Shown here piece by piece: positions 19,238 through 38,633 of a DNA stretch of 64,000 nt. This stretch comes from a candidate division WOR-1 bacterium RIFOXYB2_FULL_37_13 (GTDB taxonomy: Bacteria > Margulisbacteria > WOR-1 > XYC2-FULL-46-14 > XYC2-FULL-37-10). The notes beneath the pieces are model-generated. The model did no database searches. It was not told where the DNA came from and was given only the letters and a program-made list of their open reading frames with translations. The DNA lies in NCBI GenBank assembly GCA_001771535.1, contig MEUB01000036.1, positions 842-64,841 of the forward strand. The letters run 5' to 3'. How positions within the stretch are numbered: position 1 is the stretch's first letter; each line of letters starts with the position of its first letter. The position numbers and the translations under genes were made by a program.

Positions 19238-20038
19238 TCATTGGAAATTGGACATTGGAAATTGGAAATTGTTCCCAAACATCTCTCTCATCTTACCCAA
19301 TACATCTTCACTTTTCAACAAGCTCTCCCCTATTAGGACGGCAGAAAAGCCGGCAGACTTGAGTTCGTCTATTTGAGATTTCTCGCTTATACCGCTTTCA
19401 GAGACCAAAATCCTTGATTTGAGTTCTGGGAATTTATCCAGCAATTTTAAAGAATTATTAAAATCGACTTTTAGAGTATCAAGGTTCCTGTTGTTTATTC
19501 CTACAATATCACAATTTAAAGACAATGCTTTTTCAATATCATATTCATCGTGAGTTTCAAGAAGGACTTGGAGCCCAAGCTCTTTAGCTTTTTCAAGGAA
19601 TCTTGAAAGATCAGGCAATTCTAAAATCCTAGCAATAAGCAGAATTGCATCAGCCCCTGCAATGCGCGATTCTGTTATTTGAAGTTCATCTATTATAAAA
19701 TCTTTGCGGAAAACAGGAAGTTTTACCGCGGCTCTTACCTGTTTTAGAAAGCCTATTTCACCTTGAAAATATGTTTTGTCGGTAAGAACAGATATTGCAA
19801 AGGCACCTGAAGATTCGTACTGTTTGGCAATTGAAACGGGATCAAAGTTTTTGACAATAATACCAGCGGAAGGAGAGGCTTTTTTGATTTCGGCAATAAG
19901 GGAAATTTTATTTTCTTGATTGATGGAAGACTTAAAGTCCCGCAAGTTAGGATCAAACTCCGTCTTAGCTGTTGCCAATCTTTCTTTTAAAGCTTCGATC
20001 TCTTTTCTTTTAGTTAAAATTATTTCATCGAGGATCAT
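19238..20038 (-). CDS. trpC: Indole-3-glycerol phosphate synthase
   Basis: TIM-barrel IGPS motifs ([21 protein letters not shown]); stop codon lies inside the heptamer repeat. Confidence 0.9.
19239..19275. repeat. Heptanucleotide tandem repeat, (TCCAATK)n on the minus strand, ~5 units
   Basis: Read directly: cattggaaattggacattggaaattggaaattg; translated as [11 protein letters not shown]-stop at the trpC C-terminus. Confidence 0.8.
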
Positions 20039-20111: not shown

Positions 20112-20477
20112 ATGTCAACTTTAGCAGATTATAAAAAGTTTTGGTCAAGAAAATTCAAAGAAGACGAAAAAGCAAAAAAGAAGAAAATAAAACTTTTTAA
20201 GCAGCTTGCATCTGATGCAGCAAATATTTTAATAAAAGATTTTAAAGCCAAAAAGGTTTATCTCTTTGGATCAACTTTGGATGAAAAAATCTTTCATGAA
20301 AAATCAGACATAGATTTGGCAGTTGAAGGATTAAATCCTAAAATACATTTTTCCGCATTATCTGAAATAAAAAAACTGCTTTTTAAAAAAGCAAATGTAG
20401 ATCTTGTCCCTATGGAAGATGCATCGGAAGCACTTAAAGCATTAATTTTCAAAAAGGGAGAAATCTTATATGGCTAA
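20112..20477 (+). CDS. Minimal nucleotidyltransferase (MNT), TA antitoxin-type
   Basis: LFGSxxxxxxxxxSDIDLAV pol-beta-superfamily NTase motif; 121 aa. Confidence 0.7.
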   Translation: MSTLADYKKFWSRKFKEDEKAKKKKIKLFKQLASDAANILIKDFKAKKVYLFGSTLDEKIFHEKSDIDLAVEGLNPKIHFSALSEIKKLLFKKANVDLVPMEDASEALKALIFKKGEILYG

Positions 20478-20943
20478 ATTTGAAGGACTGATTATAGATA
20501 TAGATTTAGAACTTCAAAATCTTGATCGATTAACTATGGAGCTTGGTCAAACAACACAAGAGATAAAAGAGATTCCGGATTATACGCAGATAAGAGCTAT
20601 TGGCAGTATTTTACATGATTTTTATACAGGACTTGAGAAAATTTTTGAAAGAATCGCGTTAACCATAGATGGAGGAGTTCCTGAAGGTGATGATTGGCAT
20701 ATTCAACTTTTACGCCGAATGCTTGCCAATATTCCAGACCGCAGACCTGCCTTATTTACAAAAAATGTTGGAGAGTCTTTAGGCGAATATCTTAGCTTTA
20801 GACATCTTTTTAGAAATATTTATGGTTTTGAATTAAAATGGGAGCGTATGAGTCCTCTTGTTGAAAAATTCCCTTCTGTTTTCAAAGAAGTTGAATCTCA
20901 ACTTATGAAGTTTATAAACTTCATATCAGAAATACAAAATTAA
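20470..20943 (+). CDS. HEPN-like / nucleotidyltransferase substrate-binding (HI0074-like) partner protein
   Basis: 8-nt overlap with the MNT gene, size and helical character fit HEPN partners; motif not confirmed. Confidence 0.45.
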   Translation: MAKFEGLIIDIDLELQNLDRLTMELGQTTQEIKEIPDYTQIRAIGSILHDFYTGLEKIFERIALTIDGGVPEGDDWHIQLLRRMLANIPDRRPALFTKNVGESLGEYLSFRHLFRNIYGFELKWERMSPLVEKFPSVFKEVESQLMKFINFISEIQN

Positions 20944-20984
20944 GTATAAGAATCCTCATTCACTTAATACCTTTTTTAAAAAAT

Positions 20985-21075
20985 AACCTGAAATTTTTCA
21001 AAAACCATCATGATACTCTCACAAGTTAGGGAGGAAGGGGCCAAGAGGAAAAGAAATCAAGGAGGGAACAATGAC
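20985..21075 (+). repeat. Copy A of a ~90-bp duplicated 5' region (paralogous to 25950-26040), followed by a truncated 27-codon ORF
   Basis: ~85% identity to the sequence preceding the 26028 gene, including AAGGAG(G) RBS and an ATG-ACA start. Confidence 0.6.
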
Positions 21076-21236
21076 AAAGCCTGTAACAAAAACATCAAGA
21101 CCTAACCAAAGAACTCAAAGATGGCACAAGGAAAACCATAAAATGTTTTAGGTTGGAGAATGTAGAAATATGGGGGATGAAGAGGACTGCCGTTATGTAT
21201 TTTAGCGAAGCATTATATGACGGGCAGGTAAGGGGA

Positions 21237-21881
21237 TGGAAAAAGATTTAAAAAAAGCAATTGAAAATTTGGAAAGTTTCAAGCTATCAGGCATGAAAGG
21301 GAGTTTTTGGCACAAGAGAAAAAAATGTATGTGGACAAAAGAGCTTTTTGAAAGAGAGGCTGAAAAAATAGTTAATAAACAATTTATTAGAGATATCGTT
21401 GATATTAAGTGAAAAAAACAGGCAAGTAATTTATTTAGAATATGAGATTAACACACAAAAAAAGAATTTTTTGAAAAATACAGTTTTAGGGAAAAGAATC
21501 TTAATAACAAGCCGGCAGGACTGGAATAATGAGGAGATAGTTTTAGCTTATCAGGGGCAAAAGGATGTTGAGTTTGCGTTTAGGCAAATAAAAAATCCAT
21601 TTCATACCTGTATCAGACCTCAATATCATTGGACAGATCAAAAGATAAAAGTTCATGTGCTTTGTTCCATTATTGCATTTACTATTTGCGCTTTAATTGA
21701 AAAGACCGCAAGAGAGAATGATTGTCCTTTTATAATAAACGACATTTTGGATCGCTTATCTTCAATACGAAAAGTAAAATACATAATCCCCAAAACTAAA
21801 AATAAATTCAACATTGAATACGGTATGGAAGAAATCGAAGATGAAGCAACAAGAAAATTATTTGAAGTTTTGATGAAATAA
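21237..21881 (+). pseudogene. Degraded IS1634-family transposase (two frame-shifted fragments)
   Basis: C-terminal fragment carries the IS1634-type motif QGQKDVEFAFRQIKNPF..RPQYHWTDQKIKVHVLCSIIAF; an upstream fragment in another frame; no intact ORF or IRs. Confidence 0.6.
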
Positions 21882-22006
21882 TATATTTTTGGTGTATACA
21901 AGCTGTTCTTCTGAAAGTCAACAATGACAAGCCATGCAGGCTTTTTTATTTCTCCAGCAGTAAACTCACGCTAGCCCCGTTTCATAAAAAACAATTGGCT
22001 CTTTCT

Positions 22007-22474
22007 TTACTTAAAATTAAAAGCCACATTTTTTGTATTTTTAGGATCTATTTTAACAGGAAGAATAGCTCCAACCTGCATAAGATGTATAGCATTAAAA
22101 GGTATTACAAACCCATCTTCAACTATATAAGCAGGATACATAGGTGATGATATTTCTAATTTTATATCCATTACAGGCTGATAATTTAATTGGGTTTTTG
22201 ATGTTGCTATGCTTAATATTTCCCCCTTTCCATCAATCCCTTTTTTTAAAATATCTTTATCCCCAACAAAATTCCTCCAAATTACTTTTAATCCCTTGCT
22301 AAAAAACAACAGCAACAAAAGTATAGGCAGTAAAATTATTGCAATATTTATAATAGGAGTTATGCCAAAGTCTGTAATATTGCCAACATTGGAAAAATTC
22401 AAAATGAAAACTGAAGGAAGAACAAAAAAGATCCCAAAAATGACAAAAATAAGTACAAACTTTTCAGATCTCAT
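22007..22474 (-). CDS. Membrane protein, paralog family member (2 TM + C-terminal beta domain, bacterial PH/DUF304-like?)
   Basis: Paralogous to 32879..33739 and to the split gene 29223/32274 (shared IVEDxFxxPxxxxxLxQxGAxxPVKxDPKNxKxVA motif); conserved upstream promoter block. Confidence 0.65.
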   Translation of the reverse strand: MRSEKFVLIFVIFGIFFVLPSVFILNFSNVGNITDFGITPIINIAIILLPILLLLLFFSKGLKVIWRNFVGDKDILKKGIDGKGEILSIATSKTQLNYQPVMDIKLEISSPMYPAYIVEDGFVIPFNAIHLMQVGAILPVKIDPKNTKNVAFNFK

Positions 22475-22679
22475 TTTCCCACCTCAAGAACAGCTTAAGC
22501 TAGTAGATATGCTTTGTCAATAAGGGCTTAAGCCCCAAGAACCAATTTTTCCTCCAAAATAAATGAAATTTTTTAAAAATGATAATGATAAGGTACTATA
22601 GATATTGTCAGTTTTTGTTTGAAAAATAATTTTCAGGGAGGCATATTTATTATGGTTATAAGTTTAGGTACTATTGTAA

Positions 22680-23900
22680 ATGACTCAAAGTGGAGCAATT
22701 ATTATTCATAATCTCAAAAAAGCGGATGAAGCAGGAGATAATGACGGAGAGATTGATCAGTTGCCAGAAAATGATGAAGTTCAAGCCGCTTTTCGTCAGT
22801 TTCAATTGGAGCATTTAAATGATACAAATGCCTGGTTAGGGTTTTTGGGAATAATGAAAAGTGAAGATTACTCAGAACCAAAAGAGATTATTCCAGAAGT
22901 ATCAACAGAAGAGTTGTATACTATTTTATCTCAAGCAAGCTCTCCTATTGTTGTTGATACGGGAGCATTAGCTTGGTGCGCTGCGTGCAGAAAAGTGTCG
23001 AAAGCCTTAAATGAAATTATTCATAAAGTTACAATAACTGCGAAAAACAATCCATGTAATCCTATTTTGCTAATACAGCCCCCTTCTATAACAATAAAGC
23101 TTCCTCTAATTACAGGAAACAATGTTTTTGAAATTGCAGTAGAAGATATTTATGGGAATGTTCGCAGTCAAAGCTTCAATGCCAATGGAGGAAGATTGGT
23201 TGATGAAAGCAAACAATATATCGCAGAAGCGCTGCCTTCTGGAAACAATTTACCGCTATTACCTGTAATGATATTTGAATTTTCAGATGTAATAAAGTTC
23301 TCTTACTCAAAAGACTTTTCAGAAAAATTTCATTCTGATGCTGAGTTAAAGCAAAGGATGGATATGCTTAAAGCTTTAGTTTTACAATTAAATACAACTA
23401 TCCCGGGATGTAATATTTCTGGTGTAGAAATCGACCCTTCAAAAGAAAATTCTCTTTTTGCCGGAATTATTCCCGACATGAATGACCCAAATAAACAAGT
23501 AATTTTAATATCAGCCTCTAAGCTTGCCATCTATACAGGGGAAAATGAATTGTTGAGCCTGATGGTTGCTGTGGCTGTCGCAAAAAATTTATATGGCAAT
23601 TTAATTTCAGGGAAAGAAAGCGAATGGAATAACTTGGCAATAAAAGCAAGGCAAAACGAAGTGATCCCTTTTTTAGATTGGCCTATATGGGGATTTAAAA
23701 CCCTTGATAGAGCCTATTTCGTAGGAAGAAACACAGAAAAACTTTTTGTAAACGCTTTGAGCCTGATTTTAGTAATGGGAAAGAAATTCGGTGAAACAAT
23801 AGATGATCCAACAACGCTAATAAACAAAATCCCTCTTTCAGAAGAGCAAAAAAAAGTTTTAAGAGAAATAGAAAAATTTGTCAAAGAAATTTTAAAGTGA
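22680..23900 (+). CDS. Hypothetical protein (406 aa), first gene of a 4-gene unit
   Basis: ORF; GTGA overlap with the next gene; a 20-codon upstream mini-ORF with a strong RBS overlaps its start. Confidence 0.55.
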   Translation: MTQSGAIIIHNLKKADEAGDNDGEIDQLPENDEVQAAFRQFQLEHLNDTNAWLGFLGIMKSEDYSEPKEIIPEVSTEELYTILSQASSPIVVDTGALAWCAACRKVSKALNEIIHKVTITAKNNPCNPILLIQPPSITIKLPLITGNNVFEIAVEDIYGNVRSQSFNANGGRLVDESKQYIAEALPSGNNLPLLPVMIFEFSDVIKFSYSKDFSEKFHSDAELKQRMDMLKALVLQLNTTIPGCNISGVEIDPSKENSLFAGIIPDMNDPNKQVILISASKLAIYTGENELLSLMVAVAVAKNLYGNLISGKESEWNNLAIKARQNEVIPFLDWPIWGFKTLDRAYFVGRNTEKLFVNALSLILVMGKKFGETIDDPTTLINKIPLSEEQKKVLREIEKFVKEILK

Positions 23901-25951
23901 TAAACATCTCTTTTGCAATCCCTCGTTCTCTTGCAAGCCTCGTCCACGAACCCAAGCAAGGAAAAAACGAAGAAGAAACAGCAATCAAAGCACTTATGCA
24001 AAATGGGTTTTCCAGAGAAGAGGCAATTGCGGTAATCAATGCTTTAGTAAAAATTCATTTTGGAGAGTTTGACACAGAAGGTGAAAAAAGATTTTTAAGA
24101 AATATGCCCGATTTTTTGAAAGTTTTAAAACGGCCCGCCCTCTTTAGAAGCACATTCCCTAATGGCGTGCACGATGAAAATCTAATAAATTCTTTTATTG
24201 ATTTCTTAATAGCTTTTGGAACAATAAAAAAGGGTTCTAAAGATTTAAAAAATTGCTTGAGCTGTCTAACAATGGACAATAATATTCCCCAAGAAATTAG
24301 CCTTGTTGCTGGTTATTTGTTAGACAGAAAAACTTCTTCTAATTTTGAGCTTATACGCCCTGTAAAAATAAATGGTAAGATTTACCTCCAAATTGAGGCT
24401 TCCTATATGAGAAAGGGAATTTCTCTTCCAGGCAACAATGTTTTAGAAGAGGGTTCTGTGCTATACAGAGATGGAAATTGGTTTTTTACTCCCCCGGTAA
24501 ACAACCAAAGAGACATAAGAACTCTTCCCACTATAAGTGGCGTTAGAATTCGTTCTCTTGCCCTTGCTGTTTCTGCCCCCAAACCAGGCAAATCGTTAGG
24601 TCATGAACTGCTCGCAAATCAACCGATGATCCCAATTTATTTCGATGGTCTGCCCAAAAATGCGCCGGAATATATCTCTTTAAGCCCAACAACAAAAGAA
24701 GTTGCCTTTAGTCTAAGCCAAGGGACTTATCTTGTTTTTGAAATAGGAAATCCATTCATAAAAAATTTTAGGGGTGCCGAAATAACTGTTCATTACACTC
24801 TTTTCCAAAAAGATGGAAATTTAGCCCTTAACCCAACCCTACTGCCCTCTTTTCATATAACAACTCCTGACCGCAAGCCTGTCTCATCCTTATCTATCAA
24901 TCCTCCATCTTTGTCTACGGGAGAACTGTTAAGGATCCAAATAGAGGATGAATTCTCAAGAATTTTTGTTGAATACGGAACTGGGAAAACCGGTTTTTAT
25001 GCAGAAGAAAATTTGGCATTAAATGAGCAAAACACAATCCCTCTTGAAATAAGATTGCAGAATGAAAGCTTTGTTATAAATGAATTTGGGGAATTTATTG
25101 TATTTAATGGGGGAGAAGAAAAAAGAAGAGGTTTCCCATATAACTCAAATTACAATCTGGATTTTACTTTGCCAGTAAGCCTCGAAAAAATCAGAAGTCC
25201 CTATGATCATCTTTCAAGATCAATTTTCGACAATAAAAAAGTAGCTGTTTTCTATGAGAGGGCGCCTATGACAAGAGGCCAAACCTTAGCTCATTTAGCC
25301 CATGCTTATTTATTGCTTCCCCCAATACTGCAAAGACAGATAAAAGTCATTAGATTTTCTTATAAAGAAGGACAAAGGAATAAGAGTGCAACATACAGCT
25401 TGCCAAATACAAGAGAAATAAGAATCAATGAAGGATTTTTCTTCCCCTCTCTTTCCTATCTGTCTGAAAAATTCGAAGCTTTTCGTAAAGAATGGGAAGA
25501 AGGGGTTCCTTCTTATGTAAAATCAGAAGCGCAAACTTTGGGGCTCGGATTTTGTGGCAGGCTTGAACTTATGCCTTTCGGTAACATGCCTAAAGGTTAT
25601 TCAGGAACAAAATCATCTGGCGAAAAAGGAGCTCCTTTCATCGTTACCACAAGACCCGCTTCTGGATTAGTAACTCGAGAACCGATAGATGTGGTAAATT
25701 TATATGCTGAAGCGGCTTACATTCTAGCAAGCAGAGAGCCAAATAGATTTTCTGGGTGGGAAAGAACAGATAAAAAAATAACAATTGCGGAAGATGTAAA
25801 AAACTTTCTTCTTGGGATAATAAGGCTCGAATTTGTATACAGCAAAAAACCTTCTCAAGCAACTTTTATCAAGAATCTGACAATCTTAAAAAGTAACGGC
25901 ATAATTACTGAAACTCAAGAAATACGAGCCAAGGCTTTGATGAAAAAATAA
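23897..25951 (+). CDS. Hypothetical protein (684 aa)
   Basis: Long ORF translationally coupled to the upstream gene; no family recognised. Confidence 0.6.
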   Translation: MINISFAIPRSLASLVHEPKQGKNEEETAIKALMQNGFSREEAIAVINALVKIHFGEFDTEGEKRFLRNMPDFLKVLKRPALFRSTFPNGVHDENLINSFIDFLIAFGTIKKGSKDLKNCLSCLTMDNNIPQEISLVAGYLLDRKTSSNFELIRPVKINGKIYLQIEASYMRKGISLPGNNVLEEGSVLYRDGNWFFTPPVNNQRDIRTLPTISGVRIRSLALAVSAPKPGKSLGHELLANQPMIPIYFDGLPKNAPEYISLSPTTKEVAFSLSQGTYLVFEIGNPFIKNFRGAEITVHYTLFQKDGNLALNPTLLPSFHITTPDRKPVSSLSINPPSLSTGELLRIQIEDEFSRIFVEYGTGKTGFYAEENLALNEQNTIPLEIRLQNESFVINEFGEFIVFNGGEEKRRGFPYNSNYNLDFTLPVSLEKIRSPYDHLSRSIFDNKKVAVFYERAPMTRGQTLAHLAHAYLLLPPILQRQIKVIRFSYKEGQRNKSATYSLPNTREIRINEGFFFPSLSYLSEKFEAFRKEWEEGVPSYVKSEAQTLGLGFCGRLELMPFGNMPKGYSGTKSSGEKGAPFIVTTRPASGLVTREPIDVVNLYAEAAYILASREPNRFSGWERTDKKITIAEDVKNFLLGIIRLEFVYSKKPSQATFIKNLTILKSNGIITETQEIRAKALMKK

Positions 25952-26040
25952 AGTGAAATTTTTCGAAAACCATTATGATACTCTTGCAAGTTAGGGAGAA
26001 AGAGGTCAAGCATTCAAGGAGAAAAAAATGACACAAACTT
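25950..26040 (+). repeat. Copy B of the ~90-bp duplicated 5' region (see 20985-21075)
   Basis: Alignment by eye with copy A. Confidence 0.6.
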
Positions 26041-26540
26041 CCAGCAAAAGCTGTTTACTTTTGGCAATGAGTCGTCACGCTTTTTATGAAATTAACAGGC
26101 ATATTCCCACCACACAAAAAGGTTTGCCAAAAATCTTGAAAAGAAAATTGTATGGCGATGTAATTCCAAGAATAGAAAGAACTCTTTCCACAGCCGACAC
26201 AATAAAAGCCAAAGAAATAATTTCTATCGTTATTGAAACTGTAATGGATTTTTGGAAAAAAGACCCTTCTTTAGAAACGGCAAAAAAATTATCAGAAGAG
26301 CTAGACAATGTTATGTTAATAATCGAAACAGCACACTTTTTTAATCAAGTTATAGGAGAAAATATAGTTAATTTTTCATCTTTGTCTCCCTGTTTAAAAA
26401 TGTTCTCAAATCTACCGATAATAAGGAGATTAAGTCGTATGGTGGAAGATATTAAAGCAACAGCCCAAAAAAGCCCACCTGATTTCGCAATAACACCTGC
26501 TCTTTGGACTGGTTTCAAATCTTCAGAATACGACAATTGA
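26028..26540 (+). CDS. Hypothetical protein (170 aa)
   Basis: ORF with AAGGAG RBS; a truncated paralogous start exists at 21061. Confidence 0.55.
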   Translation: MTQTSSKSCLLLAMSRHAFYEINRHIPTTQKGLPKILKRKLYGDVIPRIERTLSTADTIKAKEIISIVIETVMDFWKKDPSLETAKKLSEELDNVMLIIETAHFFNQVIGENIVNFSSLSPCLKMFSNLPIIRRLSRMVEDIKATAQKSPPDFAITPALWTGFKSSEYDN

Positions 26541-26558
26541 AAAAAGGGGGAATAAAAA

Positions 26559-28661
26559 ATGGCAATGGAAATGGCAGCCTCTGCAATAGCACATGCTAGA
26601 CAACTCGGACAAACAGCTTTAAAAACAGTTTCCCAAGGTCAACACACTGCATCTCTTCGACAACAAGAAGCTTTTTTCCAAGTAATGTTTGATGCAAGTT
26701 TCCCTGCTGCAAAAAGAGTAGCTTACCAACTATATCCAAACAAAACATTGGTTGACAGTCCAAAATATAGGGCAAACTTAGAATTTCAACTGAGAAGAAT
26801 CCCTCCTGCACTACGAACAGCAATTTTCGCTGTATTGCATGCTATGCAACATCCAGTTGTTTTTAATAATATAGTAAACCCTCCAACAAATATACCCCAA
26901 ATAGCAAATTTATTAGGTGTTATTGAATTGGCAGGAAGAATGACGCTTCCATCGCTACTAGATAATCCTCAAATAAGTCCTAATCACTTTTCTATAGTCC
27001 AAAGAAATACTAGCAGAGTTGATTTGACACAATTTGACACCTTTTTTAAAGATGGGAGAATCCCTCGTCAATTTAGAAAAAATGATTTTGTTATAGTCGG
27101 ATCAGGCCCAGGAGGGATAATGACAGCACATATTTTACATGAAAAATACCCAGATGCTCAAATTCTAATAATTGAAGAAGGAGATTATTATCCTGGTAAA
27201 ATTTTCGGCAATTCAACTCCTATAAGAGCTACAGGTGAGTTCTATTCAGAAGGAGGAGTAACTGCTGCTATTGATTTAAAAAATGCAAGTGGAACAGCTG
27301 CCCCTACTGGCAAAGCGGTTGGAGGAAGCATGGAAATTTTTAGTACAACTGCGGCAAGAGTCAGAACCAGCGAGGAGTTTGAGCTTTATGGTTTAAGTAA
27401 ATATATGACTTGGGAAAAATATCAGAAGACAGTTGCTTGGGTAGAAGAGATACATGATGTTGCTGAAAACCCACAGGAAATAATCAACACAATAACCAAG
27501 GAAATGATCAGAGCCGCACAAAATATGCCTAAAGAATCTGGGATTAGAAATGCTGGTCCTACAAAATCATTTAGTGCTCATAAGTGTGGTGGCCTAGGAA
27601 AATGTCCTGTTGGCTGTGATACGGGAGGAAAAGAGACAACAGCTATGGTTCTTTTGCCTGCGCTTTTGGCATCTGGAAAAGTAGGATTAGTTTCAGGAGC
27701 AAAAGTTACTCAAACTATTTTAAGATCAGACAACAGCCCTAAGGCTGTAAAAATATTTTCAATGGAAGGCGTCTCTACCATTGGAATAGAAGATGGTATT
27801 ATTTCAAGTGCCGGTACATTTGGTTCCCCAGTTATAGTACATAACGCAGGGATTCGACTCCCTATGTTAGGCAAAAAATATACTGGGCAAGCAGCATTTG
27901 AACTTTTTGCATTTAATCCAAACAAAAAAATTGATCCCCCTCAACATGTAGGAAAGCCTCAATCTGGTTATATTGAGGTTTACAACACAGATAATGCGTT
28001 AGCTGATCTTGTTGCCACAGTAGACGGATTTATCGGGCTTGGTGAAGGGGCACGTCCTGCTACAGGAATTCTTGCAATGGCAAGGAGACGCTTATATGGA
28101 ACAAATTTAAGAGATTCAATAGAAGGACTTCCTTACACTGGCGTTTTTGGAGGAGTTCTCACTGAAAACATGGAAGATGTTAGGGCCGGTCTTTCAGGAG
28201 GAAATGTATATCCTGGATTGAGTAATATTTTTGGACAAAAAGTGCTAACATACTCATTATCTGAAAGAGATAGAATGAGAAGAAAATTGCTTGCATTAGC
28301 CCTCTTAAAAGTAGCCGCAAATACTCCTCAAGGAGAATATTTAGGAATAGGCCTCAATCATTTTTTTCCAAGTAAAAGCAAGTATGCTAGTTGGGGATTA
28401 TTCCTTTCTTCAGAATTACCTGAATTCGAAAGATATTTATTGCCAAATAAAAAAGTCGACTTGAGTGAAGAAATATTTTTTCATCCTATGGGATCAATGG
28501 GAGATTGTGTCGATAACGAAGGGAAGGTAATAGGCTCAAAAGATTTTTATGTAATAGATGGATCTTTATTTAAGGGCCCTGGAGTAAATCCTACAATTTC
28601 AATATTAACAGTTGCTGCTGAATTAGCTTCAAAAATAAAAAGGAGAAAAAGAATACATTAA
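26559..28661 (+). CDS. GMC-family FAD-dependent oxidoreductase (choline dehydrogenase / cholesterol oxidase-like) with ~170-aa N-terminal extension
   Basis: FVIVGSGPGG Rossmann FAD motif at residue ~178; C-terminal GMC signature (HPMGSMGDCVD...VIDGSLF..NPTISI). Confidence 0.7.
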   Translation: MAMEMAASAIAHARQLGQTALKTVSQGQHTASLRQQEAFFQVMFDASFPAAKRVAYQLYPNKTLVDSPKYRANLEFQLRRIPPALRTAIFAVLHAMQHPVVFNNIVNPPTNIPQIANLLGVIELAGRMTLPSLLDNPQISPNHFSIVQRNTSRVDLTQFDTFFKDGRIPRQFRKNDFVIVGSGPGGIMTAHILHEKYPDAQILIIEEGDYYPGKIFGNSTPIRATGEFYSEGGVTAAIDLKNASGTAAPTGKAVGGSMEIFSTTAARVRTSEEFELYGLSKYMTWEKYQKTVAWVEEIHDVAENPQEIINTITKEMIRAAQNMPKESGIRNAGPTKSFSAHKCGGLGKCPVGCDTGGKETTAMVLLPALLASGKVGLVSGAKVTQTILRSDNSPKAVKIFSMEGVSTIGIEDGIISSAGTFGSPVIVHNAGIRLPMLGKKYTGQAAFELFAFNPNKKIDPPQHVGKPQSGYIEVYNTDNALADLVATVDGFIGLGEGARPATGILAMARRRLYGTNLRDSIEGLPYTGVFGGVLTENMEDVRAGLSGGNVYPGLSNIFGQKVLTYSLSERDRMRRKLLALALLKVAANTPQGEYLGIGLNHFFPSKSKYASWGLFLSSELPEFERYLLPNKKVDLSEEIFFHPMGSMGDCVDNEGKVIGSKDFYVIDGSLFKGPGVNPTISILTVAAELASKIKRRKRIH

Positions 28662-28800
28662 TAAAATTTATTTCTATTCGATAAAAACATATGCGTATAG
28701 TTTTTATAAACACTCTTCCTCCGTATAGAGTTATATAAAACTCAATTGCCCTTCTATCCAAAATCCTATATAATCCCAAACAAGAAAAGGAGTAATTAAT

Positions 28801-29226
28801 ATGTCAGACAAATTATTGATAATTTCAGTTATAATCGCAGGTTTAATTGTTTCTTTATTTATCGTATTTAATAACAACCCTATAAGTAAAACTGTATCCA
28901 CTTTTATGACAGATATAAACAGAATAAAGATTCCAAACAGTTTCCCCAAAGATATTCCAATTTACCCAAATGCAAAAGTTGAAACCTTATCAATTAAAAA
29001 AAGCCAGACCCTTCTTGTCCTTATTTCCAAAGATAGCCCGACACAAATAAACAACTTCTATGCTTTAGAAATAAAAAAATACGGCTGGACATATACATCA
29101 AAAGACATTAATTTCTATGCGTCAACCAAAGAACATCGTGAATTATTTGTTTCTATATCCAAACTCCCTGAAGAGATAAACAAAAATGGACATTATATAG
29201 TAATCAATGAAACAACTAAAGATTAA
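28801..29226 (+). CDS. Small N-terminally membrane-anchored protein, paralog of 32372..32872
   Basis: Shared FPKDxPxYxNxK and NNFY/HNFY..GW motifs with the 32372 protein. Confidence 0.6.
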   Translation: MSDKLLIISVIIAGLIVSLFIVFNNNPISKTVSTFMTDINRIKIPNSFPKDIPIYPNAKVETLSIKKSQTLLVLISKDSPTQINNFYALEIKKYGWTYTSKDINFYASTKEHRELFVSISKLPEEINKNGHYIVINETTKD

Positions 29227-29402
29227 AGCGCAGTTTTTTCCCCTGAAGGATTAATATTCCAGGCATTTATAGCTACCCTTTTTGGGTTTTTTGGATCAAC
29301 CTTAACGGGGATAACGGCTCCCAACTGGATAAGAGAAAGCCCCATTAAAGGAATCAAAAATTTGTTTTCTATAATATAATATTCGAGCTTGTCCGTCAAC
29401 TC
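29223..29402 (-). pseudogene. C-terminal fragment of an IS-disrupted membrane-protein paralog
   Basis: ~150 bp near-identical to 33240-33390 of the intact paralog; homology stops at the outer IS junction (29403). Confidence 0.6.
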
Positions 29403-30001
29403 CCAGTCTTGTCTAATGCAAGATGTCCCTGAAGTAAAGACTGTTTCTAACGCAAAATGTCCCTGAAATGTCATTATCGAGCTTATGAATAAGCTAATAA
29501 TGATGGATCATAAAATAAAAACTGTTTCGAATCTTGAAAATCTTCTAAAAGCTGTGGTGAATTTAGATTTTCAACTAATTGACAAAAAAACTACCTACGA
29601 TTGGATTGATGATATTTTAAAAAGATTCAATTACATGTCTGCTTCAAAGAAACATAAAGGAATTTTAAAGCGTTACATTATGAAAATGACTGGTTATAGC
29701 GGTCGACAAGTTAAAAGGCTCATCAAAAAGCAATTTCAAACTGGAAAATTGACAATAAGTAAAAGTTCTAACCGTTGCAAATTCAAAAATATATACACCA
29801 AAAAAGATATCGCTTTGCTGGTTAAAACGGATAATCTTCACAATCGCTTAAATGGGTTAGCCACTAAAAAGATTTTTGAAACCGAGCATTTTACTTATGG
29901 AAAAAAGAAATATGAAAGGTTAAGTAAAATCTCTATAGCTCATATTTACAACTTGCGAAAAACTACGACATTGATCTTCCCCCCAAAAAGTAGACAGTAA
30001 A

Positions 30002-30862
30002 TTATGCATTCACGAACTTTTTTTCAAAGTTGTCTGGCGACAGAAACCCTATGGACGAGTGCCTTCTCTGTCGATTATAGAACACTTCGATGTAATTGAA
30101 AATGGACTGCCGCGCCTCCTTTCTTGTGGCATATCTTTCAAAATAGACTTGTTCAGTCTTCAATGAATGAAAGAAACTCTCGGTTATAGCATTATCGTAA
30201 CACCTCCCTTTGCGACTCATGCTTTGAATGAAACCATAATTGTTAAGCAATAGTCTCGTATCTCTGGCCGCATATTGAATACCTCGATCAGAATGAAATA
30301 TTATATTTTTGCCTGGCTGGCGGCTCAAGATAGCACCCTTTATGGCCTTGACCACCAATTGGCTTTCTAGGTGCTTTCCCATAGACCATCCGACAATCTT
30401 TCTGGAAAAGACATCAAGAACAACTGCAAGATAAAGCCAGCCCTCCAATGTCCAGATGTATGTAATATCTGATGTCCAGACTCGATTGGCTGATGCTGAA
30501 ACAAAGTTTTGCTTTAGAATATTTGGAGCTACTGGCAAAGTGTGCTGAGAATCAGTTGTCACTCTAAATTTTCTTCTTGTCTTAGCCACAAATTTGCCTT
30601 TCATAAGACGCTCAATCCTTTTTTTATTGTAATGATAACCTTGGCTCTTAAGTTCGGCACAAACTCTGGGCCGACCATAAAGCTCATGGTTTTCAAAAAA
30701 AATCTTCTTGATCTTATCCAGCAAAACCTCATTTTCTGTTTCTCTTTGGCTTTTCTCTCCCCTTAGCCATTTGTAATAGCCGCTTCGTGATACATCTAAC
30801 AACTGGCACATCTTCTCAACCGGAAAGTCGAAGCATTGCTCTCTTACAAACATAAATCTCAT
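30002..30862 (-). CDS. IS3-family transposase OrfB (integrase core, DDE)
   Basis: HSDRGIQY ... CYDNAITESFF motifs. Confidence 0.85.
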   Translation of the reverse strand: MRFMFVREQCFDFPVEKMCQLLDVSRSGYYKWLRGEKSQRETENEVLLDKIKKIFFENHELYGRPRVCAELKSQGYHYNKKRIERLMKGKFVAKTRRKFRVTTDSQHTLPVAPNILKQNFVSASANRVWTSDITYIWTLEGWLYLAVVLDVFSRKIVGWSMGKHLESQLVVKAIKGAILSRQPGKNIIFHSDRGIQYAARDTRLLLNNYGFIQSMSRKGRCYDNAITESFFHSLKTEQVYFERYATRKEARQSIFNYIEVFYNRQRRHSSIGFLSPDNFEKKFVNA

Positions 30863-31158
30863 CTCGGTTGTTTGGAGAAGATGGCCACTGCTTTTTTTAA
30901 AATATCTCGCTCCAACCTGGCCTCTGCCAACTCTTTTCTTAAACGCCTGATTTTAAGAGATTCCTCAATCCCTCCGCTTGTTTCTCCGTCTTCTCCCTCT
31001 CTTCGATCACGTTTTTGCCATCCATACAGCGTACTCGATGACACTCCTAAATCTTTAGCAATTGAGGCTACAGGTCGCTTGCTGGTATTAATTAAATCCA
31101 GCGTTTCCCTAATGAAGTCCTTATCACACCGTTTATATGGTCCTTTCTTTTTCCCCAT
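30859..31158 (-). CDS. IS3-family transposase OrfA (HTH)
   Basis: HTH region, leucine-zipper-like C-terminus; A-run slippery sequence (TTAAAAAAAG) ~35 nt before the stop, consistent with -1 frameshifting into orfB. Confidence 0.8.
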   Translation of the reverse strand: MGKKKGPYKRCDKDFIRETLDLINTSKRPVASIAKDLGVSSSTLYGWQKRDRREGEDGETSGGIEESLKIRRLRKELAEARLERDILKKAVAIFSKQPR

Positions 31159-32022
31159 AAAATCCCCCCCCTCTAATATATTATCAAAATCTCTAATTAC
31201 TGTGTCTACTAAAAGGGGGGAGGGTCACATATCGTGACAGATCAATTACTTTCACCAAGACTAATCCAAGGAAAATTAATATCGGCGAAAGAAAACGCCC
31301 TGAACCTCAAGGCAAGCCAGGCTATATCCGCGTAGATACTGTGCATCAGGGCGATTCCGACAAACAAAAAGGGGTCTATTATATAAATACTGTCGACGAA
31401 GTTACCCAATGGCAGGCAATTGCCGCTGTAGAAAAAATATCTGAAACATATTTACTCGAGGCTCTCTTAGGCTTGCTCAATCAATTTCCATTTGAAATCA
31501 TTGAATTTCATAGCGACAATGGTTCAGAATACATCAACAGACAAGTCGCAGAACTTTTAAACAGACTTTTAATTAAACTTACGAAATCTCGAGCTAGACA
31601 CTGTAATGATAACGCTTTAGTAGAGTCAAAAAATGGGGCTGTAATTAGAAAATGGATGGGCTATGCTCATATTCCTCAGAAACATGCCCAAGACATCAAC
31701 AAATTCTTTAAAAAATATTTTAATTTATATTTAAACTACTACAGACCTTCTATTTTCCCTGAAATTGTATTTTCTGCAAAAAGAAAAGAGGTCAAAAAAT
31801 ACAGATATGAGAATACAATGACCCCTTTCGCAAAACTAAAATCCATTTTTGAATACAAAAAGTTCCTCAAAAAGAATACTTCCGTCGTTGACTTAGAATT
31901 GTTTTTAAGCAATGATAGTCCTAATGAGTTTGCTGAAAAGGTGGTGAAGGCTCAAGATTGTCTCTTTAATGGCATTTCTACCTAACCCTTTTTCAGGGAC
32001 ATTCTTGCATTAGAAAATACTC

Positions 32023-32274
32023 TCCCTTTTCACGAAGCTCCTGATCACTAACCAATGAAGTCCACAGAATCTTAAGAACAGAAATTATAAAAGGAAGAAA
32101 AATCAAGATCGACACAACAGGAATAGCTACGGGTAAAATATCACTCGGTCGCGAACCAAACCCCATAGCAACTCGGCTTCTATACATATCCAAAAAAACA
32201 GCTGGAATTATACCAAAAAAAGCAACGGTAAAAATAAAAATAGAAAAAATAATTATAAATTTTGCTGATCTCAT
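32023..32274 (-). pseudogene. N-terminal (2-TM) fragment of the IS-disrupted membrane-protein paralog
   Basis: First 84 codons match the intact paralog 32879..33739 (MRSxKF...SDQELREKG); last 9 codons come from the IS end. Confidence 0.6.
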
Positions 32275-32313
32275 CTCTCCACCTCAATAACAGCTTAAAT
32301 TAGGAGAAATGCT

Positions 32314-32341
32314 TTGTCAATAAAGGTTTAAGTAGTATAAT
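32314..32341 (+). promoter_or_regulatory. Sigma70-like promoter TTGTCA-16 bp-TATAAT for the 32372 gene, inside a conserved bidirectional promoter block
   Basis: Read directly; AAAGGAG RBS 8 nt before ATG 32372; the same ~60-bp block recurs at 33741-33810 and 22476-22545. Confidence 0.45.
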
Positions 32342-32371
32342 GCCTATACATTTAGTAAAAGGAGTTGTCAT

Positions 32372-32872
32372 ATGAATAAAGGTTTATTGATTGGCGTCAT
32401 AGTTTTGGGATTGATCGCATCTCTGTTTGTAGTCTTTAATTACAACTCAATGTTCGGTCTAGTCGTAGGTTTTATGACAGGGGGAGAAACTACTTGGAAC
32501 AACAATGCTTTAGGAACTAACCAGGGAGGCATAATTCACTTAGCCGCAATGCCGGGGAAAGGAATAAATCCCCCAAAACAGTTTCCAAAAGATTTACCTG
32601 TATATTCAAACAGTAAAATTATTACTCTGCATATAGATACAACACAAACTCCAAACTTGATCAATATAATAATGGAATCTGACGATGATGCAAATACAGT
32701 ACACAATTTTTATAAATCTGAAATGCAAAAGAATGGATGGGCGTTGAAAAGTGAAAATGGTTCAGTTTTTATGACAGATTGGACAAAAGACATCCGCAAA
32801 TTGAGCATTATGATATCTCAAGGCAAACGGGGAAATCCAAATACGCCAGGATGTTCTATAATGATTAATTAA
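32372..32872 (+). CDS. Small N-terminally membrane-anchored protein (166 aa), paralog of 28801..29226
   Basis: Paralogy plus RBS. Confidence 0.6.
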   Translation: MNKGLLIGVIVLGLIASLFVVFNYNSMFGLVVGFMTGGETTWNNNALGTNQGGIIHLAAMPGKGINPPKQFPKDLPVYSNSKIITLHIDTTQTPNLINIIMESDDDANTVHNFYKSEMQKNGWALKSENGSVFMTDWTKDIRKLSIMISQGKRGNPNTPGCSIMIN

Positions 32873-32878
32873 GCCTTA

Positions 32879-38045: not shown

Positions 38046-38147
38046 ATAAGCATCCTACCAGATTGCGCCATTGCCAGTCAAGATTCGCTTGACAACATAT
38101 AAGCTCAAACAATATACTTAAGGCAATTAAACAAGGAGGGAAAAAGA

Positions 38148-38633
38148 ATGAAAAAATTTGTTATGCTGCTATCTATTTTTGTCGCTGGGGTTATTGTTTT
38201 GGGTTTACCGGTATCTGCCGCATGGAGAGGCACTGAAGGAAGAGAAGCTACGAGGCGAACCGTTGGGAAAGCTGCTGTAAAAGAATCTGGAAAAACAACA
38301 GAAGATATCAGAGGAAGATCAGGGAGAACTGAAGGAAGAAGAGCTGTTGGAAAAGCAGCTGTAAAACAGTCCGGGAAAACAACAGAAGATATCAGAGGCG
38401 TTGAAGGAAGACAGGAGACAAGAAGAACCACCAGTAAAGCGATTCTTAAAGAATCTGGAAAAACAACAGAAGATATCAGAGGAAGATCAGGGAGAACTGA
38501 AGGAAGAAGAGCTGTTGGAAAAGCAGCTGTAAAACAGTCAGGGAAAACAACAGAAGAGATAAGAGGGGTTGAAGGAAGACAAGAATTCAGACAAGAGGTA
38601 GGCAAAGACGTCTACGAAGAGACAAAAGAATAA
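38148..38633 (+). CDS. Secreted repeat protein (161 aa) made of 28-aa tandem repeats
   Basis: Signal peptide; ~4.5 repeats of GRSGRTEGRRAVGKAAVKQSGKTTEDIR-type units. Confidence 0.65.
   Translation: MKKFVMLLSIFVAGVIVLGLPVSAAWRGTEGREATRRTVGKAAVKESGKTTEDIRGRSGRTEGRRAVGKAAVKQSGKTTEDIRGVEGRQETRRTTSKAILKESGKTTEDIRGRSGRTEGRRAVGKAAVKQSGKTTEEIRGVEGRQEFRQEVGKDVYEETKE
38229..38606. repeat. 84-bp tandem repeat array (A-B-C-B-C' pattern; a 168-bp near-perfect direct repeat)
   Basis: Read directly; units abut without spacers and the array is in frame within the CDS. Confidence 0.7.

What the first reader, a model, noticed from the sequence alone, without database searches (positions are those of the whole stretch)
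22680..28661. Unknown 4-gene plus-strand unit ending in a GMC-type flavoprotein with a 170-aa N-terminal extension, embedded between IS debris and duplicated modules
Genes of 406, 684, 170 and 700 aa run co-directionally, with a GTGA overlap between the first two. A strong RBS serves a 20-codon mini-ORF (22651-22713) that overlaps the start of the first gene, which looks like a leader peptide or translational-coupling device. Only the last product is recognisable: a GMC oxidoreductase (FAD GxGxxG at residue ~178; C-terminal HPMGS...NPTISI signature). Its FAD motif begins ~165 residues later than is usual for the family. The unit sits in an accessory region between IS1634 remnants (21.2-21.9 kb) and IS-disrupted paralog modules (28.8-33.7 kb). 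The 170-aa gene has a truncated duplicate of its start at 21061.
Basis: partly seen in the sequence, partly recalled or inferred. Interest (0 to 1): 0.7.

Follow-up and report, generated by a model that had tools for sequence, protein, structure and literature searches.

The report
Orphan four-gene unit with Fe-S flavoenzyme
A groundwater Saganbacteria genome carries four real genes with almost no relatives anywhere: the last two look like a small helper protein and a sugar/alcohol dehydrogenase that probably carries FAD and an iron-sulfur cluster, and a co-occurring relative has a very different version of that pair behind the same upstream DNA.

Summary
Four co-directional ORFs (406, 684, 170 and 700 aa) lie at 22680-28661 in a variable region of candidate division WOR-1 (Saganbacteria) bacterium RIFOXYB2_FULL_37_13. 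All four have host-like codon usage.

The 406- and 684-aa proteins matched only themselves in a full HMMER scan of 1.84 billion cluster representatives. The 170-aa protein and the 173-residue N-terminal extension of the flavoprotein also found no relatives.

New findings:
- **Shared upstream element.** A 27-nt element precedes both gene pairs and a third, dead copy, so there are probably two co-regulated transcription units.
- **Second version.** Short contigs from the same aquifer carry the same 684-aa gene tail (92% aa, first 82 nt identical) and the same element. After that come a 129-aa homologue of the small protein (30%) and an N-extended flavoprotein homologue (23%). The small-protein/flavoprotein pair is therefore a conserved, co-diverging cassette.
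- **Cysteine triad.** The flavoprotein keeps the His/Asn catalytic pair. Its invariant C-x5-C-x3-C triad has the spacing that binds the 3Fe-4S cluster in Burkholderia FAD-glucose dehydrogenase, which also has a 168-aa small subunit.
- **Thioredoxin hint.** The 406-aa protein has a weak thioredoxin-like WCAAC signal.

Best reading: a cytoplasmic, cytochrome-less variant of the small-subunit/GMC Fe-S dehydrogenases, plus two orphan partners. Substrate and electron acceptor are unknown. Interest is moderate.

The parts
20978..21151 (+). Dead third copy of the shared upstream region. It holds the 27-nt element at 20989-21015, a ribosome-binding site, and an ATG at 21071 opening a 26-codon ORF. The IS1634 remnant follows.
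   Evidence: The 68-nt repeat is 87% identical to 25943-26010. The element matches exactly. ORF translated. Its first 10 nt (ATGACAAAGC) are identical to the start of the variant-2 small gene.
22564..22590 (+). 27-nt element TGAAATTTTTTAAAAATGATAATGATA upstream of the 406-aa gene. It is a candidate promoter or operator and contains a near-palindrome, TGAAA-TT-TTT(C/T)A.
   Evidence: Three matches in the window against 0.00 expected in shuffles. No conserved RNA structure. A DNA-level role is inferred.
22635..22711 (+). AGGGAGG Shine-Dalgarno sequence (22635-22641) and the 19-codon mini-ORF (22652-22711). The mini-ORF overlaps the 406-aa gene start in another frame.
   Evidence: No comparable Shine-Dalgarno sequence precedes the ATG at 22680. 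A TAA at 22677-22679 closes the 406-aa frame just upstream of that ATG.
22680..23900 (+). Gene 1, 406 aa (GenBank OGC21731.1, A2310_00295). Orphan, acidic, with no signal peptide or membrane segment. Possible thioredoxin-like domain at residues ~74-165, with W-C100-A-A-C103.
   Evidence: Full HMMER scan found only itself. All 30 PDB hits at E<10 for residues 61-190 are thioredoxins with the CxxC aligned, best E 0.011. Pfam Thioredoxin E 0.02, below cut-off. Hydropathy.
23897..25951 (+). Gene 2, 684 aa (OGC21732.1, A2310_00300). Orphan, basic, with no signal peptide or membrane segment. C120-L-S-C123 motif. Start overlaps the stop of gene 1 (GTGA).
   Evidence: Only its last 63 residues are seen elsewhere, in variant 2 (92% identity). 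One assembly has a patch of 10 SNPs at 24221-24476.
25954..25980 (+). 27-nt element upstream of the 170-aa gene, conserved in variant 2.
26028..26540 (+). Gene 3, 170 aa (OGC21733.1, A2310_00305). Small basic protein without a Tat or Sec signal. Candidate small subunit of the flavoprotein.
   Evidence: No family or homologue hits. Homologous to the 129-aa protein of variant 2 in the same position (30% identity, pairwise E 1e-10).
26559..27077 (+). N-terminal extension (residues 1-173) of the flavoprotein.
   Evidence: Absent from P0002 and P0003. No homologues found by the word-index homologue search or in PDB. Homologous to the extension of the variant-2 protein (26% over 93 aa, pairwise E 3e-6). 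Scores as coding (0.14). No Cys, His or Met is conserved between the two versions apart from Met1.
27078..28661 (+). GMC-fold core of gene 4 (700 aa in all; OGC21734.1, A2310_00310). FAD motif GSGPGG at residues 181-186. Cys triad C343/C349/C353 at nt 27585-27617. Catalytic His642 at nt 28482-28484 and Asn677 at nt 28587-28589.
   Evidence: Pfam hits. A four-sequence profile matches PDB GMC enzymes at E 6e-25 to 1e-16. His and Asn align with the catalytic pair of cholesterol oxidase. The Cys triad is invariant in all four family members.

Best explanation
This is a lineage-restricted accessory redox unit of a groundwater Saganbacteria population, organised as two gene pairs behind the same 27-nt upstream element.

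**Second pair (170 aa + 700 aa).** It most likely encodes a two-subunit dehydrogenase. The 700-aa protein is a GMC-fold enzyme that binds FAD and oxidises a hydroxyl group with a His/Asn pair; a sugar, glycoside or other alcohol is the most likely substrate. It probably passes the electrons to a 3Fe-4S cluster held by C343-x5-C349-x3-C353. This is how the catalytic subunit of the bacterial FAD-dependent dehydrogenase complexes works. The 170-aa protein would be the counterpart of their small subunit. It would bind and stabilise the catalytic subunit, perhaps together with the unique 173-residue N-terminal domain.

**Differences from the known complexes.** Nothing here carries a Tat or Sec signal, and there is no cytochrome c gene. 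The enzyme should therefore work in the cytoplasm and hand electrons to a different acceptor.

**First pair (406 aa + 684 aa).** These are the candidate acceptors or partners. Each has a CxxC motif, and the 406-aa protein has a weak thioredoxin-like signal.

**Population level.** The small-protein/flavoprotein pair exists in at least two deeply diverged versions behind the same upstream gene and element. It therefore behaves as an exchangeable cassette whose two proteins co-evolve.

**Shown.** The genes are real. They are orphans. The protein belongs to the GMC superfamily. The FAD, His/Asn and Cys-triad motifs are present. The upstream element is shared. The second version exists.

**Inferred.** Cofactor binding, the small-subunit role, the cytoplasmic location, the electron path to the CxxC proteins, and the substrate class.
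For: **GMC membership and catalytic residues.**
- Pfam GMC_oxred_N and GMC_oxred_C both score above their cut-offs.
- A profile of the four family members hits PDB GMC enzymes at E 6e-25 to 1e-16. These include the glucose dehydrogenase alpha subunit 6a2u_B (3e-17) and the fructose dehydrogenase large subunit 7w2j_A (7e-16).
- HPMG and VNPT align with the catalytic His/Asn of cholesterol oxidase.

**Cys triad.**
- C343, C349 and C353 are invariant in the window protein, variant 2, P0002 and P0003.
- The spacing C-x5-C-x3-C equals Cys212/Cys218/Cys222, which coordinate the 3Fe-4S cluster of BcGDH alpha (PMC6719666).
- P0003 also keeps the following Pro (+1) and Ala (+4), as in BcGDH Pro223 and Ala226.
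- P0002 has a full ferredoxin-type CxxCxxCxxxCP motif.
- A profile of this segment matches 6a2u_B residues 197-297 (E 0.11) and ferredoxin-type 4Fe-4S proteins (E 0.002-0.1).

**Small partner.**
- A 170-aa gene ends 18 nt upstream of the flavoprotein gene. The BcGDH gamma subunit is 168 aa, helical, and needed for functional expression.
- In variant 2 a 129-aa homologue occupies the same place, followed by an N-extended GMC homologue.
- Both proteins diverged to 23-30% identity while staying adjacent.

**Cytoplasmic location.** No hydrophobic N-terminus or membrane segment was found (maximum 19-residue hydropathy 0.9-1.6). Neither small protein has a twin-arginine motif.

**Co-regulation.** The 27-nt element occurs three times against 0 expected and is conserved in variant 2.

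**Thiol partners.** WCAAC sits in a thioredoxin-like context. CLSC is present in the 684-aa protein.

**Host context.** Saganbacteria are mostly anaerobic heterotrophs that use ferredoxin-linked redox chemistry (PMC6349859). This fits a dehydrogenase better than an O2-dependent oxidase.
Against: - No cofactor binding has been shown; the 3Fe-4S assignment rests on motif spacing and a weak segment match (E 0.11).
- The 170-aa protein has no detectable similarity to any known family, including the known small subunits, and has no Tat signal. The analogy rests on size, position and co-divergence only.
- The GMC signature around GGS is atypical (GGSMEIF instead of GGSSxIN). Variant 2 has GAGAGA instead of GxGxxG.
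- Nothing links the 406- and 684-aa proteins functionally to the flavoprotein except adjacency and the shared element.
- Single-sequence AlphaFold2 models of both are unusable (pLDDT 35), so there is no structural evidence.
- The population variation is too sparse to demonstrate purifying selection (4 synonymous against 6 non-synonymous changes).
Confidence: 0.45

Rival explanations
1. The unit is cargo of a conflict or defence island. Under this reading it is a new anti-phage or inter-strain competition system, and the flavoenzyme and its small partner are kept in very different versions by frequency-dependent selection.
For: - It lies next to an MntA/HepT toxin-antitoxin pair and among IS1634 and IS3 remnants and duplicated modules.
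- It is restricted to one population and its proteins are orphans.
- There is a sharp jump from 90% nucleotide identity to 23-30% protein identity at the cassette boundary, with a recombination-like gradient.
- There is a dead third copy of the upstream region.
Against: - None of the products, nor five neighbouring ORFs scanned with them, matches any PADLOC model, and PHROGs gives only marginal hits (E >= 0.006).
- No nuclease, ATPase, protease, NTase or sensor domain was detected.
- Codon usage is host-like, unlike the IS3 gene.
- GMC-fold dehydrogenases are not known defence effectors (my own knowledge).
- Dimorphism also occurs in ordinary accessory metabolism.
Confidence: 0.2
2. The 700-aa protein is an ordinary secreted or periplasmic GMC oxidase, cholesterol-oxidase-like or sugar-oxidase-like, and the other three genes are unrelated neighbours.
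For: The best single-sequence PDB matches are cholesterol oxidases (E 4e-5). The weak NCBIfam hits are to choline dehydrogenase and cholesterol oxidase.
Against: - These matches cover only the C-terminal 50-60 residues and score far below the family cut-offs (24-27 bits against 605-850).
- There is no signal peptide.
- An Fe-S-type Cys triad is present.
- The small gene and the flavoprotein stay together in variant 2.
- The host lineage is mainly anaerobic.
Confidence: 0.08
3. This is a peptide-maturation cluster. The 19-residue mini-ORF product (…SKWSNYYS) would be a precursor peptide modified by the flavoprotein and the thiol proteins, loosely like mycofactocin and its GMC enzyme MftG.
For: The only canonical Shine-Dalgarno sequence at the head of the unit serves the mini-ORF. 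There are weak NCBIfam hits to MftG models (E 5e-6 to 5e-3).
Against: - The MftG scores are 16-26 bits against cut-offs of 300-400.
- No radical-SAM enzyme, peptide-recognition protein or peptidase was found.
- The mini-ORF scores as non-coding (-0.06), although it is too short to judge.
- No second example of the mini-ORF is available for comparison.
Confidence: 0.05
4. These are decaying or functionless lineage-specific ORFs with no current role.
For: - No homologues were found.
- The genes sit in an IS-rich, rearranged region.
- The population SNPs are mostly non-synonymous (6 of 10 in the 24221-24476 patch).
Against: - There are four intact ORFs of up to 700 codons in AT-rich DNA, with a host-like coding signal.
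- They are tightly packed, with an overlap and an 18-nt spacer.
- The FAD, His/Asn and Cys motifs are intact.
- The homologous pair is kept intact at 23-30% identity in variant 2.
- The sequence is near-identical (>=99.9%, apart from one older error-prone scaffold) in more than ten assemblies.
Confidence: 0.07

Closest known systems
Bacterial FAD-dependent dehydrogenase complexes: Burkholderia cepacia FAD-glucose dehydrogenase gamma-alpha-beta, Gluconobacter fructose dehydrogenase, 2-keto-D-gluconate dehydrogenase and sorbitol dehydrogenase
   Same: - GMC-fold FAD catalytic subunit with a His/Asn pair.
- A Cys triad with identical C-x5-C-x3-C spacing at the equivalent place in the fold. In BcGDH it binds a 3Fe-4S cluster that takes electrons from FAD.
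- A small protein of about 170 aa next to the catalytic subunit gene here, matching the 168-aa BcGDH gamma subunit in size.
   Different: - No Tat signal on the small protein and no detectable sequence similarity to the known small subunits.
- No multihaem cytochrome c subunit.
- An extra 173-residue N-terminal domain.
- Predicted cytoplasmic location in a mainly anaerobic lineage.
- Overall similarity is no closer than to other GMC enzymes.
Cholesterol oxidase (class I, GMC fold; e.g. PDB 1b4v)
   Same: Best single-sequence PDB match. The C-terminal substrate-domain motifs, with the catalytic His and Asn, are conserved.
   Different: - The match is confined to about 57 residues.
- The NCBIfam cholesterol oxidase model scores 24 bits against a cut-off of 850.
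- The window protein has no secretion signal.
- To my knowledge cholesterol oxidases have no Fe-S Cys triad and no small partner.
Cellobiose dehydrogenase (N-terminal cytochrome domain fused to a GMC flavodomain)
   Same: A domain of about 190 residues precedes the GMC flavodomain. It is the top hit of the family profile in PDB (4qi7_A, E 6e-25).
   Different: - The PDB match is to the flavodomain only.
- The extension here has no similarity to any PDB chain.
- No His, Met or Cys is conserved between the two versions apart from the initiator Met, so a haem site is unlikely.
Thioredoxin-fold proteins
   Same: The 406-aa protein has W-C-A-A-C preceded by a hydrophobic strand (PIVVD) and followed by a helix. 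HMMER aligns this with WCGPC of many thioredoxins.
   Different: - Scores are below the curated threshold (Pfam 15.3 bits against 23.5).
- Only the first half of the fold aligns.
- The domain sits inside a 406-aa protein whose remaining ~300 residues are unknown.

Membership tests
GMC oxidoreductase superfamily | N-terminal Rossmann-type FAD-binding motif (GxGxxG followed by an acidic residue at the end of the second strand) and a match to the GMC_oxred_N model | tested here: met
   VIVGSGPGG at residues 178-186 and IIEEG at 203-208. PF00732 scores 42.1 bits against a cut-off of 23.
GMC oxidoreductase superfamily | C-terminal substrate-binding domain (GMC_oxred_C) carrying the catalytic His and a His/Asn partner | tested here: met
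   PF05199 scores 25.3 bits against a cut-off of 24.6. His642 and Asn677 align with the catalytic pair region of cholesterol oxidase. The pair type is as listed for GMC enzymes in PMC6719666.
GMC oxidoreductase superfamily | Full-length similarity to solved GMC enzymes | tested here: met
   A profile of four family members gives 188 PDB matches, all of the best 60 being GMC-fold enzymes at E 6e-25 to 8e-16.
FAD-dependent dehydrogenase complex (BcGDH / FDH type) | Cys-rich motif in the catalytic subunit that binds a 3Fe-4S cluster | tested here: inconclusive
   The C-x5-C-x3-C spacing is identical to Cys212/218/222 and invariant in all four relatives. The segment profile matches 6a2u_B residues 197-297 only at E 0.11. 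Cluster binding itself cannot be tested here.
FAD-dependent dehydrogenase complex (BcGDH / FDH type) | Small 'hitchhiker' subunit with a twin-arginine signal, needed for expression and export of the catalytic subunit | tested here: not met
   A 170-aa gene is adjacent. It has no twin-arginine motif or hydrophobic signal region, and no family model matches it even at E<=10.
FAD-dependent dehydrogenase complex (BcGDH / FDH type) | Multihaem cytochrome c electron-transfer subunit encoded with the other two | tested here: not met
   No cytochrome family hit in the ORFs scanned around the unit (20112-20943, 21399-33739). The CxxC motifs in the 406- and 684-aa proteins are followed by R and L, not H.
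Thioredoxin family (406-aa protein) | Significant match to the thioredoxin model, with the CxxC at the start of helix 1 | tested here: inconclusive
   The CxxC aligns with WCGPC, and all 30 PDB hits at E<10 are thioredoxins (best E 0.011).
Mycofactocin system GMC oxidoreductase MftG | Score above the equivalog cut-off and presence of the mft genes | tested here: not met
   TIGR04542 scores 25.9 bits against 400, TIGR03970 22.9 against 387 and NF038210 15.9 against 300. No radical-SAM or other mft-type hit in the ORFs scanned around the unit.
Cholesterol oxidase / choline dehydrogenase equivalogs | Score above the NCBIfam cut-off | tested here: not met
   NF058674 scores 24.1 bits against 850. 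NF002550 scores 27 bits against 605.
Known anti-phage defence systems (PADLOC-DB v2) | Any component matching a defence model | tested here: not met
   No hits at E<=0.1 for the four products or for five neighbouring ORFs.

The most novel reading that the evidence does not exclude
The four genes form a previously undescribed cytoplasmic electron-transfer system. A small-subunit/GMC dehydrogenase would feed substrate-derived electrons through a 3Fe-4S cluster to dedicated CxxC proteins (Fe-S to disulfide), instead of to cytochrome c or O2. The enzyme and its small subunit would be kept as deeply divergent, exchangeable cassettes within one population, because the system is involved in strain-level conflict or in niche-specific substrate use.
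Probability: 0.12. Interest if true: 0.7.

Novelty: new variant of a known kind. Interest (0 to 1): 0.42.

Why it matters
If the reading is right, the Fe-S-containing GMC dehydrogenases would no longer be only periplasmic, Tat-exported, cytochrome-c-linked enzymes of aerobic Proteobacteria. They would also include a cytoplasmic, cytochrome-less form in an anaerobic lineage sibling to the Cyanobacteria, with a new N-terminal domain and a new small partner. These enzymes are studied mainly because they transfer electrons directly to biosensor electrodes.

The unit also gives a clean natural example of an enzyme and its small subunit diverging together to 23-30% identity behind the same upstream gene and regulatory DNA. 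This is useful for studying subunit co-evolution and cassette exchange in uncultivated bacteria.

The two large orphan proteins have no relative among about 15 billion predicted proteins, so they are candidates for new folds. Orphan genes are common in such genomes, however, and no function has been shown, so the case is interesting rather than striking.

Tried and rejected
**Family and homologue searches that found nothing new**
- Pfam, NCBIfam, PADLOC and PHROGs scans of the 406-, 684- and 170-aa proteins gave no credible family match, whole or in seven domain-sized pieces at E up to 10. The exception is the weak thioredoxin signal.
- A full HMMER scan of 1.84 billion representatives with the 406- and 684-aa proteins concatenated found only themselves.
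- Word-index searches with the 700-aa protein, the 170-aa protein and the N-terminal extension found only the query itself, plus two weak GMC relatives for the 700-aa protein.
- A tblastn search of the GMC core against plasmids gave only 23-28% matches to the N-terminal half of generic GMC genes.

**Structure**
- PDB sequence searches gave nothing for the 684-aa protein, the 170-aa protein or the extension.
- Single-sequence AlphaFold2 models of the 406- and 684-aa proteins have mean pLDDT 34.9 and 35.0. I therefore ran no fold searches.

**Genome and contig searches**
- A GTDB genome scan for the flavoprotein found no relative.
- A second scan with the neighbouring trpB gave only cross-phylum hits of 58-70% identity, which are useless for synteny.
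- Look-ups of neighbouring genes for alternative contexts returned only near-identical copies of the window locus.
- The truncated 'variants' P0007 and P0010: P0010 traces to an old scaffold with gaps and indels, not a disruption; P0007 was not traced.

**Ideas rejected**
- The 170-aa protein and the 173-residue extension are duplicates of each other: no similarity.
- The 406- and 684-aa proteins are paralogues: no similarity.
- The extension is a cytochrome domain as in cellobiose dehydrogenase: no conserved His, Met or Cys.
- The shared 5' regions form an RNA element: no conserved structure and no Rfam hit.
- The unit is a compositionally foreign island: G+C content and codon usage are host-like.
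- The unit was inserted into one of the membrane-protein paralogues: the order of the fragments does not fit.

Full report
**1. What is there**

The window comes from candidate division WOR-1 (Candidatus Saganbacteria) bacterium RIFOXYB2_FULL_37_13, a groundwater metagenome-assembled genome from the Rifle aquifer.
- 22680-23900, 406 aa
- 23897-25951, 684 aa, with a GTG start and a GTGA overlap
- 26028-26540, 170 aa
- 26559-28661, 700 aa

GenBank lists all four as hypothetical proteins, locus tags A2310_00295 to A2310_00310. They are real genes. Open frames of 400-700 codons cannot arise by chance in DNA of 36% G+C. A codon model trained on the window's housekeeping genes scores each ORF as coding in the annotated frame only, at 0.15-0.28. 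Housekeeping genes score 0.21-0.30 and the IS3 transposase scores 0.02. The same locus is at least 99.9% identical in more than ten independent assemblies of Rifle samples, apart from one older scaffold with gaps and indels.

**2. Context**

The unit lies in a 13.8-kb variable stretch between trpC and mraW. This stretch also holds:
- an MntA/HepT toxin-antitoxin pair at 20112-20943;
- the C-terminal remnant of an IS1634 transposase at 21399-21881 (E 9e-22);
- an IS3 element and an integrase fragment;
- several full and truncated copies of two membrane-protein families, of 155/286/93/83 aa and 141/166 aa.

Neither G+C content nor codon usage separates the four genes from the chromosome. The region is accessory by arrangement, not by composition.

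**3. Orphan status**

- The 406- and 684-aa proteins were searched together with full HMMER against 1.84 billion cluster representatives of about 15 billion proteins. They matched only themselves.
- The 170-aa protein and the first 175 residues of the 700-aa protein found no relatives.
- The 700-aa protein found only two GMC proteins at 24-25% identity.
- Pfam, NCBIfam, PADLOC and PHROGs gave no credible match for the first three proteins.
- PDB sequence searches gave nothing for the 684-aa protein, the 170-aa protein or the extension.
- Single-sequence AlphaFold2 models of the two large orphans were unusable (pLDDT 35), so I ran no fold search.

**4. The flavoprotein**

Residues 174-700 form a complete GMC-fold core:
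- Both Pfam GMC domains score above their cut-offs.
- The FAD motif is at residues 178-186.
- A profile built from the four family members hits solved GMC enzymes at E 6e-25 to 1e-16.
- The C-terminal motifs align with the catalytic His/Asn region of cholesterol oxidase.

No curated equivalog is approached. Cholesterol oxidase, choline dehydrogenase and MftG score 16-27 bits against cut-offs of 300-850. The N-terminal extension of 173 residues is real, because the two nearest relatives start at the FAD motif.

Three cysteines, C343-x5-C349-x3-C353, are invariant in all four members. Their spacing is that of Cys212/Cys218/Cys222, which hold the 3Fe-4S cluster of the Burkholderia cepacia FAD-glucose dehydrogenase catalytic subunit (PMC6719666). 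One relative has the full ferredoxin-type CxxCxxCxxxCP motif at this position. A profile of this segment matches residues 197-297 of that dehydrogenase, weakly (E 0.11), and also ferredoxin-type 4Fe-4S proteins.

In that enzyme class the cluster takes electrons from FAD and passes them to a partner subunit. A 168-aa helical small subunit is needed for functional expression of the catalytic subunit.

**5. A second version of the unit**

Aligning the regions upstream of the 406-aa gene, the 170-aa gene and the short ORF at 21071 showed a shared 27-nt element, TGAAATTTTTYRAAAAYSATNATGATA. It occurs three times against zero expected. Scanning public metagenome contigs for it returned one short contig. 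Exact look-up of the 129-aa protein encoded there gave two more contigs, one of them from the same sample as a window-type contig. Together they show, in order:
- the last 63 residues of a 684-aa-type gene at 92% identity, with 90% nucleotide identity over 278 nt, the first 82 nt identical, and mismatches increasing towards the cassette;
- the same 27-nt element;
- a 129-aa protein homologous to the 170-aa protein (30% identity, pairwise E 1e-10);
- a 23-nt ribosome-binding region at 96% identity;
- a protein of at least 602 aa with the same architecture as the 700-aa protein, at 23% identity over 462 residues (E 2e-16). It has an N-terminal extension (26% identity, E 3e-6), an FAD motif and the Cys triad.

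Three conclusions follow. First, the extension is an integral, inherited domain of this small subfamily. Second, the small protein and the flavoprotein are a conserved pair that diverged together, as expected for proteins that bind each other. Third, the abrupt change from near-identity to saturation at the start codon of the small gene implies recombination at the conserved upstream region, that is, cassette replacement. The dead copy at 20978-21151 starts with the same 10 nt (ATGACAAAGC) as the variant-2 small gene, which differs from the resident 170-aa gene after ATGACA. It therefore looks like the relic of another such cassette, cut off beside the IS1634 remnant. These data cannot tell whether variant 2 is an allele in a co-occurring strain or a paralogue.

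**6. The first gene pair**

The 406-aa protein has W-C100-A-A-C103. HMMER aligns this with the WCGPC active site of thioredoxins. All 30 PDB matches below E 10 for residues 61-190 are thioredoxins, the best at E 0.011.

The 684-aa protein has C120-L-S-C123 and a marginal UBA-like helix. One assembly has ten SNPs clustered at 24221-24476 around that motif, four synonymous and six not. None of the four proteins has a signal peptide or a membrane segment.

**7. The mini-ORF**

The only canonical Shine-Dalgarno sequence at the head of the unit (AGGGAGG, 22635-22641) serves a 19-codon ORF at 22652-22711. It overlaps the 406-aa start at 22680 in another frame. The 406-aa frame is closed by a TAA immediately upstream of its ATG. 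In the alignment with the other two copies of the upstream region, the mini-ORF's Shine-Dalgarno sequence lines up with theirs and its ATG follows downstream of it as theirs does. Translational coupling is a reasonable reading but cannot be tested here. The shared 5' regions show no conserved RNA structure and the window has no Rfam hit.

**8. Interpretation**

The best-supported model (confidence about 0.45) is a cytoplasmic, cytochrome-less variant of the small-subunit/GMC Fe-S dehydrogenases. It would oxidise an unknown hydroxylated substrate and pass electrons through the cluster to an unknown acceptor. The two orphan CxxC proteins, which share the 27-nt upstream element, are candidate partners.

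This suits a lineage described as mostly anaerobic and ferredoxin-based (PMC6349859). Membership of the known complex family is not claimed. The Tat-signal small subunit and the cytochrome c subunit were tested and are absent, and Fe-S binding is inferred from a motif.

The main rival (about 0.2) is a conflict or defence cassette, suggested by the neighbours and the deep dimorphism. No known defence model or typical effector domain supports it. Lesser rivals are an ordinary secreted oxidase, a peptide-maturation cluster and decaying ORFs.

**9. Verdict**

The finding is a new variant of a known kind (Fe-S GMC dehydrogenase with a small partner) attached to two true orphans, with an unusual population-level cassette dimorphism. 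Orphan genes are common in uncultivated phyla and no function has been demonstrated, so I score interest as moderate (0.42).

Noticed in passing
window 33932-33988 (+) and 19240-19271 (opposite orientation): Arrays of a 7-nt repeat (TCCAATN; 8.1 and 4.6 copies) occur only at these two places in the window. One lies inside the mraW/rsmH coding sequence just after its GGGGH motif. The other lies in the trpC-trpB spacer. Together they bracket the variable region. One assembly (ERZ27254748) has one unit fewer, which breaks the mraW frame, so the gene is called at 246 aa instead of 299 aa. This could be phase variation of a 16S rRNA methyltransferase or an assembly artefact.
   Followed up: partly
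window 20112-20943: An MntA-type nucleotidyltransferase antitoxin (121 aa) and a HepT-like toxin (157 aa) form an overlapping type VII toxin-antitoxin pair directly upstream of the dead copy of the shared upstream region.
   Followed up: no
window 22007-22474 (-), 29223-29474 (-), 31993-32274 (-), 32879-33739 (-); 28801-29226 (+), 32372-32872 (+): Two families of small membrane or signal-anchored proteins occur in several full and truncated copies around the unit. One has 155/83/93/286 aa members and the other 141/166 aa members; the 166-aa member is tagged PF27226 AF_1845. About 110 nt of shared 5' and upstream sequence accompanies them. Their function is unknown.
   Followed up: partly
window 24221-24476, compared with L085: One assembly differs from the window by ten SNPs, all within 256 nt of the 684-aa gene around its CLSC motif, and by none in the other 11.4 kb. 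This patch suggests a short recombination tract between strains.
   Followed up: partly
window 13240-16443 (-), 43188-44807 (-), 47109-49388 (-), 50785-55356 (-): Four further large ORFs (1067, 539, 759 and 1523 aa) have no Pfam match. The 1067-aa product has only a marginal hit to a phage distal tail protein family (E 8.5e-4) and sits next to an NHL-repeat protein.
   Followed up: no
window 38262-38566: An 84-nt tandem repeat (3.6 copies, 72% matches) lies within overlapping ORFs on both strands at 38105-38633.
   Followed up: no
window 25877-25905: A good sigma-70-like site (CTGACA-17-CATAAT, 10 of 12) lies inside the 3' end of the 684-aa gene, 49 nt upstream of the 27-nt element, and is conserved in variant 2. 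The 27-nt element may therefore be an operator or 5'-leader element rather than the promoter itself.
   Followed up: no
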